Source of the DNA: a virus
Taxonomy: Duplodnaviria > Heunggongvirae > Uroviricota > Caudoviricetes
Strand: one strand, 5' to 3'
IMG/VR virus record: IMGVR_UViG_2737471864_000003
Length of the DNA stretch: 6,200 bases
Made by a program: the position numbers and the translations under genes. Below, piece by piece: positions 1-6,200 of this stretch; the first letter of the stretch is position 1; each line of letters starts with the position of its first letter. The notes under the pieces were generated by a model. That model had not been told where the DNA came from, made no database searches, and saw only the letters and a program-made list of their open reading frames with translations.

Positions 1-337
1 TAAGTTGGCAGCATCACCAGCCTTCTTGAGGCTACCACCTGTTTTCAGGTGTCATTCAGACGTGATTTGCCCCAGATTGGGAAAGCACGCTTTTTTCTCA
101 GCTATCGTCCTCTTATTTTGCCGTTACATTTCTTTTTGCACTCTAATGATTAATTTACAATAATAATATCGGTAATTATTGAGTAATAATAAATTGATTA
201 TTGCAAATGTAATTTAATTCCATCTTCGCGTTATATTCCAATCTTTAATCTCCGCATGGAACAAGTTGCATGCGTGACTATATTAAGACAACTTATAACC
301 ACCAAAACATTTGCTTTGCAAGCAAAAACAGTGACCA

Positions 338-366
338 TTGACTCTAAGAAAATTCCGATCTATTGT
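338..366 (+). promoter_or_regulatory. Candidate sigma70 promoter: -35 TTGACT (338-343), 17-bp spacer, -10 TATTGT (361-366)
   Basis: Motif match only, with correct spacing, in an AT-rich context where chance matches are common. It would start a plus-strand transcript near 373 that covers the small ORF at 401-502 and could end at the 652-681 terminator (about 310 nt). Confidence 0.25.
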
Positions 367-400
367 TAGGGTCATCAAAGTTACTTAACAGTATTCCGAA

Positions 401-502
401 ATGAAAATACAAAGCAAGCTAATTGTCTTATTAAACATTATTATTGCATTTATATTATTTGAGCTTTTAGCTCAAAAATTTGGTTTGAGTACATTATTTT
501 AA
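401..502 (+). CDS. Hypothetical small hydrophobic protein, 33 aa (MKIQSKLIVLLNIIIAFILFELLAQKFGLSTLF); possible small membrane protein; speculative
   Basis: ATG at 401 and TAA at 500-502, with an in-frame upstream stop at 386-388. A charged N-terminus is followed by about 18 hydrophobic residues. There is no convincing Shine-Dalgarno, and AT-rich DNA yields hydrophobic ORFs by chance. Below the ORF-track size cutoff. Confidence 0.15.
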   Translation: MKIQSKLIVLLNIIIAFILFELLAQKFGLSTLF

Positions 503-651
503 AGCAAGATAAACAATATCGGGCACTCTAGTTTTTATAATTAACAATTAAACGTCCATAAAATGTTATTTACTTTTCTTCGCTATTGTTATATCTTAAT
601 ATAGTGGCTTACGCCACTCTACTTTCATCACATTTTGTACGTTTATGTATT

Positions 652-681
652 CGCCATGAAGCTCTTTCATGGCGATTTTTT
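652..681 (+). terminator. Rho-independent terminator, plus-strand orientation
   Basis: A perfect 9-bp stem, cgccatgaa (652-660) pairing with ttcatggcg (666-674), a 5-nt loop gctct, then a (675) and tttttt (676-681). On the minus strand the hairpin is followed by AATACATAAACG, so it is a poor minus-strand terminator. Confidence 0.6.
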
Positions 682-767
682 ATTCTTAATCCAAGAACAT
701 ACTCCCTACCTATAGAAAAATCACTTTTTTAACAAAAGAATAACGTATTTAGGTAATCATTACGAAT

Positions 768-1349
768 TTACCCTATAGGTGCTACTGGCCATTCAATATC
801 CTGTGCAGTTGACGTATCAACACGGTTCAGCAATACCCGATACTTTTTCCATGCTTCCAGCAACGAGATTTCTTCCTCCGTTGCAATTTCCAGATCTGCA
901 GCATCCTGAAGCGGCGCAATATGCTCACTGGCTACCTGCATCAGGTTGTTTTTTGTTTCTTCCGCCTCCCGGATCCGGAACAGTTTTTCTGCTTCCGTAT
1001 CCTTCACCCAGGCTGTGCCGTTCCACTTCTGAAACTCCCCTTCCGGCGATAACCAGGTAACATTTTCCGGTAACGGACCGAGTTCAGAAATAAATAACGC
1101 GTCGCCGGAAGCCACGTCATAAACCGTTTTACCCCGATGATCTTCAACGAGATGCCACGATGACTCATCACTGTTGAAAACAGCCACGAAGCCAGCCGGA
1201 ATATCTGGCGGTGCAATATCGGTACTGTTTGCTGGCAGACCTGTATGAGGCGGAATATATGCATCACCTTCACCAATAAATTCATTAGTTCCGGCCAGCA
1301 GATTATAAATTTTTATGGTCCGTGGTTGTTCACTCATTCTGAATGCCAT
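768..1349 (-). CDS. tfa: Tail fibre assembly protein / chaperone (lambda Tfa-like), apparently intact
   Basis: The 193-aa [47 protein letters not shown]... is near-identical to lambda Tfa (about 194 aa) as I recall it. The ATG at 1349..1347 overlaps the stf stop TAA at 1351..1349 (TAATG on the coding strand). Confidence 0.93.
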
Positions 1350-4300
1350 TATGCAAGCCTCACAATATAGTTAAATGCGATGTTTTTGACGGTGTTTTCC
1401 GCGTTACCAGCAGCGTTAACGGTGATGGTGTGTCCATGTGAACCAATCGCAACGGAGTGCGTATGAGCACCAATACCGACAGTATGTGCATGTGCGCCTG
1501 CGCTTGCAGCAGTGCCGGACAGCGAGTGGGTATGAGCACCATCTGATGATGTCTTCCCTGCATTACGAGTCTGGCCACTACCGCTTGTTGTGCTCATAAT
1601 CCCCGCGCTTAGATTTGAAATCGCGGTATAACCATTAGGGAAAATGCTCGTGTTCGTGCCACCAAATGCACCGGAACTCTTGTGTTGGTGCGCACCGGCA
1701 CTATTTGCGGTCCCGCTAATACTATGGGTATGCGCCCCGGTGTTATTCGTGGATTTGGTTCCGTAATCAAACGACGATGTGGTTTTCGTCCCCAAATCCG
1801 TACTGGATGCGCTGGCGCTGTGGGTATGCGATTTAATGCCGTCCTGTTCCTGAGACAATACGGCCCGACCACTGGCAGGTTTGCCCTTAATCGTCCAGCC
1901 ACGCATATCAGGGATCACGCCTGACGGATAAGCGGCTGCAAGTTTCGGGTAGGCAGATTTGTCAAAAGTCTGCCCCTGCATCAGGGCATAACCAGACGGA
2001 ACGGTATCTGATGGCCACGGGATTGGTGCGCCGACTGGGTAGCTTTCTGGTGGAAGATTTTTCGAGGTATAAACTTCTGCCCAGTCTTCCTCAAAACCAT
2101 AACCGTCTCTTGAAGAACGGTAGAACAGACCACCATTTCTGTAATGCGCCTTCATCTGCAGGGTCCGGCAACTTCCGACTCCGGTATAGAAGTTAACCAG
2201 AATATAGCTGTTGCCAGAGCGGGTGACATTGTAAGCGCCTGATTCGGCATTCCAGGGAACGCCACCATCCGCATCGGCATATGTATCCGTTGCCCTTCTG
2301 GCAAAAGCAGCCACATGCGCGGCGGTTAAAGTAATATCTTTGGAACCATCAAACTCAACACCAGAAACCAGTCTTGGCGTTTGCAGCTTTGTTGCTGTCA
2401 ATGCGTTACCGTTCAGACTTGCAGACAGTTTGGTTCCAATAACCAGTTCGCCGGTTGCGTTATCAATAACAAACGGTCTTAATGTATTCCATCCACCATA
2501 AACATCACCTTGATTGGTAAGCAGCAGGTAAGTTTTAGCGCCATCATTACGCCATAATGCACCATACTCCCCACCTATCATTCGAATCTGATTACCACCA
2601 CGCGCTACAATTTCGTCTGTGGCAAAAAGTTTTTTGCACGACAAGTTATCGTTAACGATTAACGAATGGGACTCATAAAAACCACGCCCACTCTTAAAAT
2701 CAAGGATAACGTCCGCCGCGATACATTCAGTCGCTGGATTTGTTGCCCCAAACTTATAGGTCGTATCATTAACAACGAGATCAGCACCAGGTGCGGATAT
2801 TGACAGGCCATCTTCGATGAACGCAAAAACAGGGAAAGCAGCGCCATCAACATAGAACACAGAGCGCAAATCATCGCCCTTATTACTCATCATTATTGAG
2901 TGGATGGCTCGTTCATTGTTTTGATATTGCCAGAACATTCCATAAGCATAACGCCCCCTGTCAGTCCAGCCACCAGGCATAACAAATCCGTTAAACTCGC
3001 AGTTATTCATCGGATCGCCTGCGGTTCGCGTTGCCGTGGTGATAATGACCCTTGATGCCAGTTCGCTTACTGAGCCAGCAGAACGCATAACAACAACAGG
3101 GTAATATTTTCCAGATGTTGCACCTGCAGGAGCGTTAACCCGCACATAACGCATACCACGCTTATCAGCAAAGTCTGTTTTACTGACCGCGTTAATGTTG
3201 TTCAGGAAGCGTACCTTATCGGGTATATCAGCGCCGTTCTGGTCTTTCTGCAGACGTTTCTCTGCATTGTCATAGGCTGCTTTTACTGCCTTTGGCGTTG
3301 CCGCCAGTGACTCGGAAGTGCTGTTGGTCGCACTGCTGAGCTGTACTATCCCCTTTTTCGTCGTGCTCGCATCCTCAAGCGCCACGGCGGATGCAATATC
3401 CTCTGCCCGTTTTGCCGCTGTCTCAGCGCGCGTTGCTGCGGATTCTGCCGTACTTTTGCTCTGTGCTGCCGCTGTCGCACTGCCAGCAGCCTCTGTCGCC
3501 TTTGTGGATGCCGTCGTGGCGCTGCCCTTCGCTGCTGACGCCTGTCTGGTCGCCTCATCTTTTGAAGCAGACGCCGATGATGCCGATGACGCCGCCGAAC
3601 TGGCGGATGATGCGGCAGCCGTTTTTGAGGATTCTGCGCTGGTTTCCGACGCTTTCGCGTTCGTCTCGGATGTCTTCGCTGCGGAAGCTGACCTCGCTGC
3701 TGCGCTGGCCTGTACAGCGGCTTCGCCAGCATTCGTTGTGGCTGTTGAAGCAGACGATGCAGCACTTTCTGCCGACTTTCCGGCAGCGGTGGCACTGGCT
3801 GAGGCCTGCCCGGCACTTGTTGACGCGGCACTGGCAGATGATGCAGCCGCTGTTTTTGAGCCTGCCGCAGCTGAGGCACTCTGTCCCGCTGCCGTTTCAG
3901 AAGACCTGGCGTTCGTCTCGGACGTCTTTGCCGCCTTCGCGGAATTTCCTGCCGCCGTTGCCGAGGAAGCTGCGCTGCTGGCGCTCGAGGCTGCGCTCGT
4001 TTCTGATGATTTCGCTGCCTCTTTTGAGGCCGCCGCATCCCGGGCTGAGGTGGCAGCTTCTGACGCTTTCGTGGTCGCGGTGGATGCAGAAGTGGCTGCA
4101 GATTTTTGTGACGCTGCCGCATTCGTTTCTGACGTTTTCGCGGCACTGGCACTGGTAGCTGCCGCGCTTTTTGAGGACTCTGCAGCGGCAGCACTTTTTG
4201 ATGCTTCAGTAGCCTTTGTTGATGCCGTTCCTGCGCTGGAAGACGCTGACTGAGCCGACGTCGCGGCCTGCCCGGCTGATGTGCTGGCTGCACGTGCTGA

Positions 4301-4561
4301 GCCTGCAGCATCAGTCGCATGGGTTGCCGCCTCACGGGCTGATGTGCTGGCATCGCTGGCTGACTTCTTCGCGGCTGCTGTGTTCTGCGCCACTGCGGAC
4401 GCGTTACGCGCCACCTCTTCCACCATCAGTTCAAAGCGGCGCAGTGCCTCCGGACGGGCATCATCCTCCGTCATGGCACCGAGAAAATCATTCAGCGTAC
4501 CGGGTTGAGAATCTTCATACACGGTGATGGTCCCGGCATGTGACGGCGGGAAGCGGTTCAT
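1349..4561 (-). CDS. stf: Side tail fibre protein (lambda Stf / E. coli StfR-like), 5'-truncated, 1070 codons from a start codon that lies in terminase-derived sequence
   Basis: The ORF starts [26 protein letters not shown]; in lambda-type Stf the [18 protein letters not shown] segment lies about 60 residues in, as I recall. It has a long Ala/Ser/Thr-rich region with repeated AKTSETNA motifs, a His-x-His-rich C-terminal tip (GAHTHS, GAHQHK, GAHAHT, SHGHT) and ends ...[11 protein letters not shown]. Its stop overlaps the tfa start. Confidence 0.9.
3392..4414 (-). repeat. Low-complexity Ala/Ser/Thr-rich imperfect repeat region inside stf (fibre shaft)
   Basis: Stf residues about 50-390 are almost entirely A, S, T, K and E. 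Three copies of a 24-nt motif encoding AKTSETNA lie at 3656-3679, 3908-3931 and 4118-4141, verified codon by codon. The stop-free, GC-rich composition produces the overlapping alternative-frame ORFs in the track. Confidence 0.7.
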
Positions 4562-6167
4562 CCCCTTCCGGCGTCAGTGTGAAGCGGTTATAAATCTGCT
4601 CTTTCGCGGTATCCGTACCGATTTCGGTAAGGTAAACCCCGTTTTTGTTTCGCTTACGTGGCATGCTGGCCACCGGCTTTCCGTAGACGGATGCCCCTTT
4701 AATGGGGATCACCCGGAACAGCCCATGTTTTTTCGAGCGTTCATACACAATGGTCGGGTCAATCCCGCCAGTATCCCAGCAGATACGGGATATCGACATT
4801 TCTGCACCATTCCGGCGGGTATAGGTTTTATTGATGGCCTCATCCACACGCAGCAGCGTCTGTTCATCGTCGTGGCGGCCCATAATAATCTGCCGATCAA
4901 TCAGCCAGCTTTCCTCACCCGGCCCCCATCCCCATACGCGCATTTCGTAGCGATCCAGCTGGGAGTCGATACCGGCGGTCAGGTAAGCCACACGGTCAGG
5001 AACGGGCGCTGAATAATGCTCTTTCCGCTCTGCCATCACTTCAGCATCCGGACGTTCGCCAATTTTCGCCTCCCACGTCTCACCGAGCGTGGTGTTTACG
5101 AAGGTTTTACGTTTTCCCGTATCCCCTTTCGTTTTCATCCAGTCTTTGACAATCTGCACCCAGGTGGTGAACGGGCTGTACGCTGTCCAGATGTGAAAGG
5201 TCACACTGTCAGGTGGCTCAATCTCTTCACCGCATGACGAAAACCAGAGAATGCCATCACGGGTCCAGATCCCGGTCTTTTCGCAGATATAACGGGCATC
5301 AGTAAAGTCCAGCTCCTGCTGGCGGATGACGCAGGCATTATGCTCGCAGAGATAAAACACGCTGGAGGGGTCATCCGGCGTCCATTTGAGGCCAAACGGC
5401 GTCTCTTTGTCGCCAAATTTAAGATACTGCTCCTCCCCGCAGTGCGGGCAGGCAACATGAAAACGCATAAAATGCGGGGATTCACTGGCTGCACGCTCAA
5501 TCTGGCAGGTGCCTCTCACTTTGGGCGTGGAGCCACGGATGGACTTTGGCCAGACCGAGCCTTCAATACGTTTGTCGCCAAGGAACGTCGGAGAGCCTTC
5601 CTGTTCAATATCCTCATCAAAGGCAGCAAGTTCATCATAACCCGCCACATCCACCGACTTTTCACGGTAGTTTTTTGCCGCTTTACCGCCCAGGCACCAG
5701 AAGCCACGCCCATTAGTGAAACGCTTCATGGTGAGCGTGTTATCCCGGTGCTTTTTGCCATACCACGGGGCCAGCGCCAGCAGCGAAGGAATATCACGGA
5801 TGGTCGGCTCAACGTGGGTTTTCATAAAGTTCTCGGCATCACCATCCGTCGGCAACCAGATAAGTGTGTTGCGCTGCTTATGCTCTATGAAGTAGGCATA
5901 AACACCCAACAGCATTTTGGAATAACCAACACGGGCAGACTTCACCACATTCACCTCGCGGATGTAGTCGCTGCCCATCGCATTCATGATGGCCCGCTGA
6001 AAGGGCAGTGTTTCCCAGCGCCCTTCCTGGTATGCGGATTCTTTCGGGAGATAGTAATTGGCATCCGCCCATTCAACGGCGGTCTGTGGCTCCGGCCTGA
6101 ACAGTGAGCGAAGCCCGGCGCGGACAAAATGCCGCAGCCTGTTAACCTGACTGTTCGATATATTCAC
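4515..6167 (-). CDS. A: Terminase large subunit (lambda gpA-like), 3'-truncated: about 540 codons of terminase followed by 10 out-of-frame codons ([10 protein letters not shown]) read from tail fibre sequence; probably a pseudogene
   Basis: The 550-aa ORF begins [19 protein letters not shown] and contains [11 protein letters not shown] (P-loop-like) and [13 protein letters not shown], matching lambda gpA as I recall it through ...[12 protein letters not shown]. The start codon is GTG (revcomp of cac at 6165-6167). Lambda gpA is about 641 aa, so roughly 100 C-terminal residues are missing. Confidence 0.9.
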
Positions 6168-6200
6168 TCAGCAACCCCGGTATCAGTTCATCCAGCGCGG
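6142..6200 (-). CDS. nu1: Terminase small subunit (lambda Nu1-like), C-terminal fragment only; the 5' end lies beyond the right edge of the window
   Basis: Translating the minus strand in the frame that ends with TAA at 6144..6142 gives ...[18 protein letters not shown], which matches my recollection of the lambda Nu1 C-terminus. It overlaps the start of the large terminase gene by 26 nt, as in lambda. Not in the ORF track because it is partial. Confidence 0.6.
   Translation of the reverse strand, partial: ALDELIPGLLSEYIEQSG

What the first reader, a model, noticed from the sequence alone, without database searches (positions are those of the whole stretch)
4515..4580. Deletion junction joins the large terminase gene directly to the side tail fibre gene
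The terminase reading frame matches lambda gpA through ...EGDEPLP (codons at 4556..4548). The next bases, gccgtcacatgccgggaccatcaccgtgtatga on the minus strand, encode [12 protein letters not shown] of the tail fibre when read in the fibre frame. The breakpoint therefore sits at about 4545-4556, possibly within a short shared ttcccg. Everything lambda normally carries between A and stf is absent, so this element cannot build a virion by itself. The missing terminase C-terminus includes the region I recall as needed for prohead binding in lambda.
Basis: partly seen in the sequence, partly recalled or inferred. Interest (0 to 1): 0.6.

Follow-up and report, generated by a model that had tools for sequence, protein, structure and literature searches.

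The report
Deletion scar in a defective prophage
This is the scar of a 17.6-kb deletion that removed all head and tail genes from a lambda-like prophage of E. coli, which is an ordinary kind of prophage decay, but its tail-fibre end lies at a single nucleotide position that at least eight other independent rearrangements also use.

Summary
On the minus strand, lambda gene A runs natively to window 4547 (gpA residues 1-540, 538/540 identical). Side-tail-fibre (stf) homology starts at 4552. The two overlap in an exact 6-bp direct repeat, TTCCCG (4552..4547).

Compared with the intact sister prophage of E. coli MS15047, which has the same IS1 insertion downstream of tfa, 17,594 bp are missing: the last 101 codons of A, W through J, lom, and the first 66 codons of stf. 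The junction is identical in five independent assemblies, so it is not a misassembly.

By itself this is a new instance of a known kind (compare K-12 Qin nohA|stfQ' and DLP12 nohD-aaaD-tfaD).

Unexpectedly, stf nt 199-200 (TT|CCCG) is a recurrent endpoint. Eight different left partners (ylcI, Nu1, A1879, A2331, B, I and two J sites), one exactly reciprocal inversion and one internal stf deletion all break there. Four control positions gave no junctions. Partner sites share a [G]TTNCNG pattern. Din-invertase sites and DNA hairpins were tested and not supported. The cause of the hotspot is unresolved.

The parts
6142..6200 (-). 3' end of the small terminase gene (Nu1/nohD homologue), cut by the contig end
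   Evidence: Window 6200 aligns to lambda 678 and Nu1 ends at lambda 736. L003 extends 57 nt further and stays identical to lambda Nu1.
4548..6167 (-). Native part of the large terminase gene A, codons 1-540 of 641: ATPase domain complete, nuclease domain truncated, prohead-binding C-terminus absent
   Evidence: 538/540 identical to lambda gpA. PF05876 is complete; PF20454 covers profile 2-228 of 294. DNA has 20 mismatches in 1654 against lambda and 13 against MB19.
4515..4547 (-). Foreign tail of the A' ORF: 10 codons ([10 protein letters not shown]) read from stf DNA in the +1 frame, then TGA at 4517..4515
4547..4552 (-). Deletion junction: one retained copy of the 6-bp direct repeat TTCCCG (lambda A 2326-2331 and stf nt 199-204)
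   Evidence: Three-way alignment; coordinates; identical in five assemblies.
4559..4561 (-). Fortuitous ATG in the fibre frame, created from A's GAT GAA. It opens the 1070-aa [13 protein letters not shown]...
   Evidence: Whether it is used for translation was not tested.
1349..4552 (-). 5'-truncated side tail fibre gene stf: codons 67-1133 of the intact gene, otherwise open and collinear
   Evidence: 98.8% ungapped identity to the MS15047 stf (1133 aa). PF08400 covers only profile 66-134; Gp34_trimer and Collar domains are present.
768..1349 (-). Intact tail fibre assembly gene tfa (193 aa), overlapping the stf stop by 1 nt
   Evidence: PF02413, E = 4.7e-43. Same arrangement as in MS15047.
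19..767 (-). Non-coding prophage DNA downstream of tfa, collinear with MS15047
1..18 (-). First 18 nt of the IS1 left terminal repeat, inserted at the same base as in MS15047. It explains why the contig ends here.
   Evidence: Window minus strand ends ...ggct|ggtgatgctgccaactta. The 59-nt extension in L003 is 59/59 identical to MS15047, including the IS1 repeat.

Best explanation
The window is a complete small contig from a draft E. coli-type assembly. It holds the core of a defective lambda-family prophage of the same lineage as the intact prophage beside bio in E. coli MS15047.

Shown:
- A single 17.6-kb deletion joined gene A (nt 1621) to stf (nt 199) across a 6-bp direct repeat, TTCCCG, of which one copy remains.
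- It removed the terminase C-terminus (part of the nuclease domain and the prohead-binding end), all head and tail genes W to J, lom, and the first 66 codons of stf, which form the first half of the PF08400 N-terminal domain.
- What remains is an A' pseudogene (540 native + 10 foreign residues), an otherwise intact stf body, tfa, and an IS1.

Inferred:
- The event was illegitimate, RecA-independent joining at short homology, not homologous or invertase-mediated recombination.
- The fibre-side end was not random. stf nt 199-200 (TT|CCCG) is a breakage-prone site that was joined to whatever TT-containing sequence was available. In this lineage that sequence happened to offer 6 matching bases.
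- The remnant cannot make virions. At most it is a reservoir of fibre sequence for recombination with incoming lambdoid phages.
For: Junction anatomy and microhomology.

Undeleted sister prophage with the same IS1 insertion, and the deletion size of 17,594 bp.

The junction is real: five assemblies with identical sequence. A 6-bp overlap is too short to mislead a k-mer assembler.

Domain losses. Prohead-binding function of the gpA C-terminus: PMC4856287.

Recurrent endpoint at stf nt 199:
- A1879 in GmM062, L088 and L224.
- B3343 in MB19, where the apparent 10-nt filler is lambda B 3330-3339.
- ylcI in S43, MB06022 and three metagenome contigs.
- Nu1 ~705 in FG31-1 and two more genomes.
- Gene I in L257.
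- J deletion in L043.
- Exactly reciprocal J/stf inversion in L221 and L222.
- Left-retaining internal stf deletion in L296.

The same junction-detecting scan at stf nt 187, 205, 211 and 217 found none.

Lambda is known to acquire stf/tfa from Rac and Qin by recombination (PMC3945230).
Against: - The chromosomal position of this element is inferred only from the shared IS1 insertion; both contig ends lie in repeats.
- The terminase side is no closer to MS15047 (26 mismatches in 1654) than to lambda (20) or MB19 (13), so the two arms may have different recent histories.
- A one-step origin from an intact prophage cannot be told apart from a secondary deletion starting at an older junction at stf 199.
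- Right-flank alleles do not settle independence. MB19 and FG31-1 are identical over 280 nt, yet GmM062 and L088 share one junction and differ at 14 of 280 positions.
- The agent that makes stf 199 fragile is unknown.
Confidence: 0.9

Rival explanations
1. Assembly chimera: the A-stf join was created by the short-read assembler and does not exist in the cell.
For: The window is an entire 6.2-kb draft contig whose two ends lie in repeats (Nu1/A and IS1). No complete E. coli genome (0 of 5426) and no GTDB species representative has this junction.
Against: The same 550-aa fusion ORF and an identical 201-nt junction occur in five assemblies: three NCBI assemblies from two accession series, plus two Logan assemblies of separate SRA runs, with different contig ends. 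The overlap is only 6 bp. Analogous junctions at the same stf base occur in closed genomes.
Confidence: 0.02
2. Stepwise origin: the lineage first acquired an older junction at stf 199 (for example B3343|stf199, as in MB19). A second, smaller deletion between the TTCCCG in A and the TTCCCG at that junction then produced the present state.
For: MB19 shows that second deletions do land next to the first junction: W2736|B3328 lies about 12 nt left of B3343|stf199. The window's A is closest to MB19's A, at 13 mismatches. FG31-1 (Nu1|stf199) has a right flank identical to MB19's over 280 nt. L088 and L224 carry the A1879 junction plus a further upstream deletion.
Against: MB19 is at the Qin locus and lacks the IS1-bearing right arm that the window shares with MS15047. 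No intermediate with this right arm was found. Reusing the old junction as an exact endpoint would itself require the site to be special.
Confidence: 0.2
3. Pure chance microhomology: ordinary replication slippage between two random TTCCCG copies, with no special property of the stf site.
For: A 6-bp direct repeat with one copy retained is the classic signature. There is no unusual DNA secondary structure at the site: z = +0.97 and -0.23. The 20.9 kb between ylcI and stf holds 147 TTNCNG sites on the sense strand.
Against: Eight distinct left partners, an inversion and an internal deletion end at the same base, while four control positions in the same conserved island have none. Five of the eight partners share only TT, too little for slippage over 1.5-20 kb. 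The inversion is reciprocal and conservative. Partner sites are enriched for C at +2 and G at +4 but not at +1 or +3 (P = 1.3e-4), which base pairing does not predict.
Confidence: 0.1
4. Site-specific invertase (Pin/Cin/Gin family) acting on a quasi-crossover site in stf. These enzymes are encoded next to tfa in many of these prophages and cut at a central TT.
For: pinQ lies directly downstream of tfaQ in Qin-type loci. Published crossover sites have a central TT or TC dinucleotide, quasi-sites are known, and invertases are thought to drive stf exchanges (PMC4134206; PMC3945230). All events share a 2-nt TT core, and one is a conservative inversion.
Against: The stf site and seven partner sites (Nu1 was not scored) score 55-93 against a half-site matrix built from six real E. 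coli prophage crossover sites (real sites 155-218; random mean 72, 95th percentile 106). No pin gene lies downstream of tfa in the window, MB19, S43 or MS15047.
Confidence: 0.04
5. Enzyme-made nick or break at an asymmetric motif, [G]TT|NCNG on the top strand and CNGN|AA on the bottom strand, made for example by a type IA topoisomerase, a junction resolvase (RuvC prefers (A/T)TT|(G/C), RusA cuts 5' of CC) or another nicking enzyme. The break is rejoined to a second, weaker site of the same kind, as happens for deletions anchored at rolling-circle nick sites.
For: The break position is fixed to within 2 nt in both directions. The inversion is reciprocal. Motif enrichment: +2 = C in 7/8, +4 = G in 7/8, -1 = G in 6/8. 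C at -4 on the bottom strand is the rule for type IA topoisomerases (PMC9352719). rusA is carried by these prophages.
Against: The in-vivo EcTopoI motif is AT-rich (TCNTT|A), and this site is GC-rich. Quinolone-trapped gyrase cuts before G, and here the next base is T. Resolvases need four-way junctions, which non-homologous partners do not form. The motif positions were chosen after seeing the data, from only 8 sites. The RuvC, RusA and rolling-circle analogies come from memory, not from a test here.
Confidence: 0.3

Closest known systems
E. coli K-12 cryptic prophage Qin (nohA | stfQ' - tfaQ - pinQ)
   Same: A lambdoid remnant that keeps the cos-proximal packaging gene and the distal fibre genes, having lost the whole head-tail module by an internal deletion. 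Other strains' Qin loci show a series of different A/W/B-to-lom/stf deletions.
   Different: The K-12 breakpoints are at lambda ~719 (Nu1/A start) and deep in stf (about nt 2680), not at A 1621 and stf 199. Qin sits in ydfJ and has pinQ. The window has an IS1-bearing right arm like the prophage beside bio.
E. coli K-12 cryptic prophage DLP12 (nohD - aaaD pseudogene - tfaD)
   Same: A truncated terminase large-subunit pseudogene abuts fibre-module DNA.
   Different: Only about 309 nt of A remain, and the join is to tfa, not stf.
Short-homology illegitimate recombination in E. coli and lambda (replication slippage, alternative end joining)
   Same: A deletion between short direct repeats with one copy retained and no need for long homology.
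   Different: The fibre-side endpoint is reused by many partners that share only 2 nt, and by a reciprocal inversion, which the simple model does not predict.
Deletion hotspots anchored at a nick site (rolling-circle origins of M13 and pC194; vaccinia topoisomerase in lambda lysogens). Recalled from memory, not checked here.
   Same: One endpoint is fixed to the nucleotide, and the other lies at scattered sites sharing a short motif with it.
   Different: No nicking enzyme or origin is known in stf, and nothing here shows that a nick occurs.
Din-family invertase crossover sites (hix/gix/cix/pix) in tail-fibre genes
   Same: Located in a tail-fibre gene, 2-nt TT core, capable of inversion and deletion.
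   Different: The half-sites do not match, and the position is near the 5' end of stf, not at the constant/variable boundary.

Membership tests
Lambda-type large terminase gpA | N-terminal packaging ATPase domain (PF05876) | tested here: met
   E = 7.7e-51, residues 47-285, profile 3-237 of 247
Lambda-type large terminase gpA | Complete C-terminal endonuclease domain (PF20454) | tested here: not met
   Profile 2-228 of 294, against 2-286 in lambda gpA
Lambda-type large terminase gpA | C-terminal prohead (portal)-binding segment | tested here: not met
   Residues 541-641 are absent and replaced by 10 unrelated residues. The role of this segment is taken from PMC4856287.
Lambdoid side tail fibre Stf | Complete N-terminal domain PF08400 (134 positions) | tested here: not met
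   Only profile positions 66-134 are present; the intact MS15047 Stf has 1-134
Lambdoid side tail fibre Stf | Fibre shaft and distal domains (Gp34_trimer, Collar) followed by a tfa chaperone gene | tested here: met
   PF21446, PF07484 and tfa PF02413; collinear with MS15047 at 98.8%
Defective (cryptic) lambdoid prophage of the Qin/DLP12 type | Lambdoid packaging and fibre genes present while head and tail morphogenesis genes are absent between them | tested here: met
   A' abuts stf'; 17,594 bp (W to lom) are missing relative to MS15047
Defective (cryptic) lambdoid prophage of the Qin/DLP12 type | Integrated in the chromosome at a known attachment site | not testable with these tools
   Both contig ends lie in repeats. 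The IS1 insertion shared with the bio-side prophage of MS15047 is only indirect evidence.
Short-homology (microhomology) deletion | The same short sequence at both parental sites in direct orientation, one copy at the junction, no inserted bases | tested here: met
   TTCCCG at A nt 1616-1621 and stf nt 199-204 of MS15047, one copy at window 4552..4547
Din-invertase (Pin/Cin/Gin/Hin) crossover site | 26-bp site with two about 12-bp half-sites resembling TTCTCGTAAACC around a 2-bp core | tested here: not met
   stf site scores 64 and seven partner sites 55-93 (Nu1 not scored), against 155-218 for real sites and a random mean of 72
Type IA topoisomerase cleavage site | C four nucleotides 5' of the cut, in an AT-rich context (EcTopoI: TCNTT|A) | tested here: inconclusive
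   C at -4 on the bottom strand in stf and in 7 of 8 partners, but the context is GC-rich (PMC9352719)

The most novel reading that the evidence does not exclude
The fibre-side end of this deletion marks a previously undescribed, nucleotide-precise breakage-and-rejoining site in the side tail fibre genes of E. coli lambdoid prophages (stf nt 199-200, [G]TT|CCCG). A sequence-specific nicking or cleaving activity repeatedly joins it to secondary TTNCNG-like sites, producing deletions of 1.5-20 kb, internal fibre deletions and conservative inversions. It would be a recurrent route by which these prophages lose their morphogenesis genes while keeping the fibre cassette.
Probability: 0.35. Interest if true: 0.6.

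Novelty: new member of a known kind. Interest (0 to 1): 0.33.

Why it matters
As a single locus it matters little. It documents, to the base, one more way a lambda-like prophage is disabled, with the undeleted sister available for comparison.

The wider pattern could matter more. If prophage decay in E. coli is channelled through a few nucleotide-precise fragile sites, then which genes survive in cryptic prophages is shaped partly by mutation bias, not only by selection for 'domesticated' functions. Here the survivors are cos-Nu1-A' and stf-tfa. The site would also give a defined, assayable substrate for studying illegitimate recombination in vivo.

Tried and rejected
1. Exact-junction scans of GTDB species representatives: two patterns, both empty.
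2. A hairpin or structure-induced pause at the site: DNA folding of 121 nt on both strands gave z = +0.97 and -0.23, so no support.
3. Pin/Din invertase quasi-site: scores no better than random.
4. An IS end as the unknown left partner of L219, L220 and L223: rejected, because it is the Rz-iss-ylcI late region of the prophage.
5. MB19's '10-nt filler' as untemplated insertion: rejected, because it is a leftover of gene B between two successive deletions.
6. RecBCD/Chi: a Chi-like GTTGGTGG lies 5 nt 5' of the break, but the retained side and the orientation are wrong for Chi-stimulated processing (my reasoning from textbook RecBCD polarity). I treat it as coincidence.
7. Gyrase: quinolone-trapped cleavage prefers G after the cut and a symmetric motif; this does not fit.
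8. Using right-flank alleles to prove the events independent: not decisive, because the same junction type (A1879) is found with right flanks differing at 14 of 280 positions.
9. The inversion was not found in any of 5426 complete genomes. It rests on two independent metagenome contigs.
10. Literature searches found no prior description of a hotspot at this stf position. The library is incomplete, so this is weak evidence of novelty.
Full report
**The observation**

On the minus strand the window holds a 550-aa ORF (4515..6167) and a 1070-aa ORF (1349..4561) that overlap by 47 nt. The DNA upstream of the overlap is 100% identical to lambda gene A (J02459 2078-2331), and that identity stops at window 4547. 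Homology to side tail fibre genes of lambdoid phages starts at window 4552.

A three-way alignment shows lambda A reading ...GAACCGC TTCCCG GTGCC..., the closest full-length fibre gene reading ...GGAAGGA TTCCCG CCGTCA..., and the window reading ...GAACCGC TTCCCG CCGTCA.... The junction is therefore one copy of an exact 6-bp direct repeat at 4552..4547. That corresponds to A nt 1616-1621 and stf nt 199-204, codons 67-68.

The terminase product matches gpA at 538/540 residues through ...EGDEPLP. It then reads 10 residues ([10 protein letters not shown]) from fibre DNA in the wrong frame and stops. The fibre frame reads [13 protein letters not shown], and A's GAT GAA happens to supply an in-frame ATG at 4561.

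**Is it real?**

The window is the whole of a 6200-bp draft contig (JWZM01000119.1), which raises the possibility of a chimera. The exact 550-aa fusion protein is encoded on four further contigs: two other NCBI assemblies and two Logan assemblies of separate sequencing runs. The contig ends differ, and the 201 nt around the junction are identical in all five. A 6-bp overlap cannot mislead a k-mer assembler, so I consider the junction real. It is rare: 0 of 5426 complete E. coli genomes and no GTDB species representative carry it.

**The undeleted state**

From 4552 down to base 1, the window is collinear and 98.8% identical to a prophage beside bio (the lambda attachment region) in E. coli MS15047.

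The window's last 18 bases are the start of an IS1 terminal repeat. A sister contig that runs 59 nt further is 59/59 identical to MS15047 across the same IS1 insertion point. The two elements therefore share an ancestor that already carried this IS1.

MS15047 has the complete module nohD-A-W-B-C-D-E-FI-FII-Z-U-V-G-T-H-M-L-K-I-J-lom-stf-tfa, and TTCCCG is present at both parental positions. The deletion is 17,594 bp.

**Consequences**

- The terminase keeps its ATPase domain but loses the end of the nuclease domain (Pfam profile 2-228 of 294, against 2-286 in lambda) and the last 101 residues.
- The C-terminus of gpA is the prohead-binding domain, and removing only 5 residues abolishes binding (PMC4856287).
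- The fibre loses the first half of its PF08400 N-terminal domain and keeps the rest, followed by an intact tfa.
- The element cannot make heads or tails and has no working terminase.

**Comparison with known cases**

This is the familiar anatomy of E. coli cryptic prophages. K-12 Qin is nohA|stfQ'-tfaQ-pinQ, and K-12 DLP12 is nohD-aaaD(pseudogene)-tfaD.

Other strains' Qin loci and bio-side prophages show a whole series of such deletions:
- A2160|'lom in ET490.
- A1944|'E plus Z8067|intergenic in strain 1303.
- B3465|stf nt 40 in NWU_4.
- B3468|'lom in GPEC1405.
- B2984|intergenic in BL21(DE3).

Such remnants are known donors of stf/tfa sequence to infecting lambda (PMC3945230). Taken alone, the finding is a new member of a known kind.

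**The unexpected part**

Mapped against full-length references, several unrelated rearrangements end at the very same fibre base as the window:

| Partner | Overlap | Where seen |
|---|---|---|
| ylcI | TT | S43, MB06022, three metagenome contigs |
| Nu1 ~705 | TT (GGGTT with the GGG allele) | FG31-1 and two more genomes |
| A1879 | TTCC | GmM062; L088 and L224, which carry a further deletion |
| A2331 | TTCCCG | the window |
| B3343 | TTCC | MB19 |
| Gene I | TT | L257 |
| J (deletion) | TT | L043 |
| J (inversion) | TT | L221, L222 |

In MB19, an apparent 10-nt filler proved to be a leftover of gene B between two successive deletions.

In the J inversion, the J-end/lom/stf(1-198) segment is inverted with both junctions visible in one contig, no base gained or lost, and only AA/TT shared. 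An internal fibre deletion keeps stf 1-200 and discards the right side (L296), so the site is used in both directions.

**Is that more than ascertainment?**

Some of these events were found by searching for junctions at this site, so I ran controls. The same junction-detecting scan of the same collection at stf nt 187, 205, 211 and 217 returned only point variants of intact alleles and no junctions. Nt 199 gave three partner types. GmM062 and MB19 came from searches that were blind to the fibre-side position.

All eight partners have TT at the join, and five share nothing more. After the TT, partners are enriched for C at +2 (7/8) and G at +4 (7/8), but not at +1 or +3. The joint pattern occurs in 6/8, against 13.5% of background TT sites (P = 1.3e-4). 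G at -1 occurs in 6/8. The positions were picked after seeing the data, so this is suggestive only. An alternating pattern is not what base-pairing microhomology predicts.

**What causes it?**

- Hairpin stalling is not supported (z = +0.97 and -0.23).
- Din-family invertase sites, the obvious candidate in a fibre gene, do not match (real sites from PMC4134206).
- Quinolone-type gyrase cleavage does not fit.
- The bottom strand reads CNGN|AA, with C at -4 as type IA topoisomerases require, but EcTopoI's in-vivo motif is AT-rich (PMC9352719).
- RuvC-like (TT|S) and RusA-like (|CC) preferences also resemble the site. These come from memory, and resolvases need four-way junctions.
- A Chi-like GTTGGTGG lies 5 nt upstream, but its polarity is wrong.

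Right-flank alleles differ among events (4-21 differences in 280 nt) but cannot prove independence, because one junction type occurs on flanks that differ at 14 positions. Stepwise reuse of an older junction therefore remains possible for some pairs, for example MB19 and FG31-1. Either way the site is a preferred endpoint, and its agent is unresolved.

**Verdict**

- Observation confirmed and interpretation supported.
- The junction itself is an ordinary, lineage-specific prophage deletion at 6-bp microhomology (confidence 0.9).
- Its fibre-side end coincides with a recurrent, nucleotide-precise rearrangement site. This is the only part of real interest, and it needs a large-scale census and a genetic test.

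Noticed in passing
window 4547-4552; L011:8199, L010:9670, L295:~10004, L298:2502, L257 (- strand, + coords 256-282), L043 (- strand, + coord ~3583), L221:343 and 1834, L296:~6275: stf nt 199-200 (TT|CCCG) is shared as an exact endpoint by eight different left partners, one reciprocal inversion and one internal fibre deletion. Control positions show none. Partner sites fit [G]TTNCNG.
   Followed up: yes
L009:9762 (NWU_4) and L013:9789 (GPEC1405): Two different deletions have left ends only 3 nt apart in portal gene B (lambda 3465 and 3468) but different right partners (stf nt 40 and lom). This may be a second preferred breakpoint.
   Followed up: partly
window 1-18: The contig ends 18 nt into an IS1 terminal repeat, inserted at the same base as in MS15047. 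At least 14 complete genomes match the window through this end, which suggests an old, widespread insertion in this prophage lineage.
   Followed up: partly
L001:5988-5995 (stf nt 186-193), sequence lost from the window: A Chi-like octamer GTTGGTGG (7/8 match to GCTGGTGG) lies 5 nt 5' of the recurrent break, the distance at which RecBCD cuts relative to Chi. The retained side is the wrong one for Chi processing. One allele (L231) has the perfect GCTGGTGG.
   Followed up: partly
window 1948-2745 (+) and 1349-3385 (-), as called in L005: In the public record of this contig the gene caller split the truncated fibre, calling a 678-aa C-terminal ORF and a 265-aa antisense ORF instead of the 1070-aa ORF. 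The long antisense ORFs in the Ala/Ser-rich repeat region (for example 3318-4253 +) are almost certainly spurious.
   Followed up: no
L079 and L096 (IMG/VR): Two otherwise intact fibre genes have a 1-nt deletion in the G-run immediately 5' of TTCCCG (GGTGGAGG|TT and GGTGGAAGG|TT), which are frameshifts at the same spot.
   Followed up: no
L274:~2991 (IMG/VR): A fibre gene whose sequence upstream of about nt 191 is unrelated to the usual N-terminal domain (...CGCCAGTTTCTGGATGGAAGGC|TTCCCG). It may be a natural mosaic boundary at nearly the same place.
   Followed up: no
L164 (- strand, IMG/VR): The only other break found inside stf nt 1-213 in the unbiased sample is at nt 133, with an unidentified partner (...GCTGGCAGCTATTGA|GAAGCCGGGCG).
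   Followed up: no
L299:3388 (BL21 Star(DE3)): The B-strain prophage region beside ybhB/bio carries its own head-tail deletion, B2984 joined to the lom-stf intergenic region (lambda 19595). Both flanks are 99.9-100% identical to lambda.
   Followed up: partly
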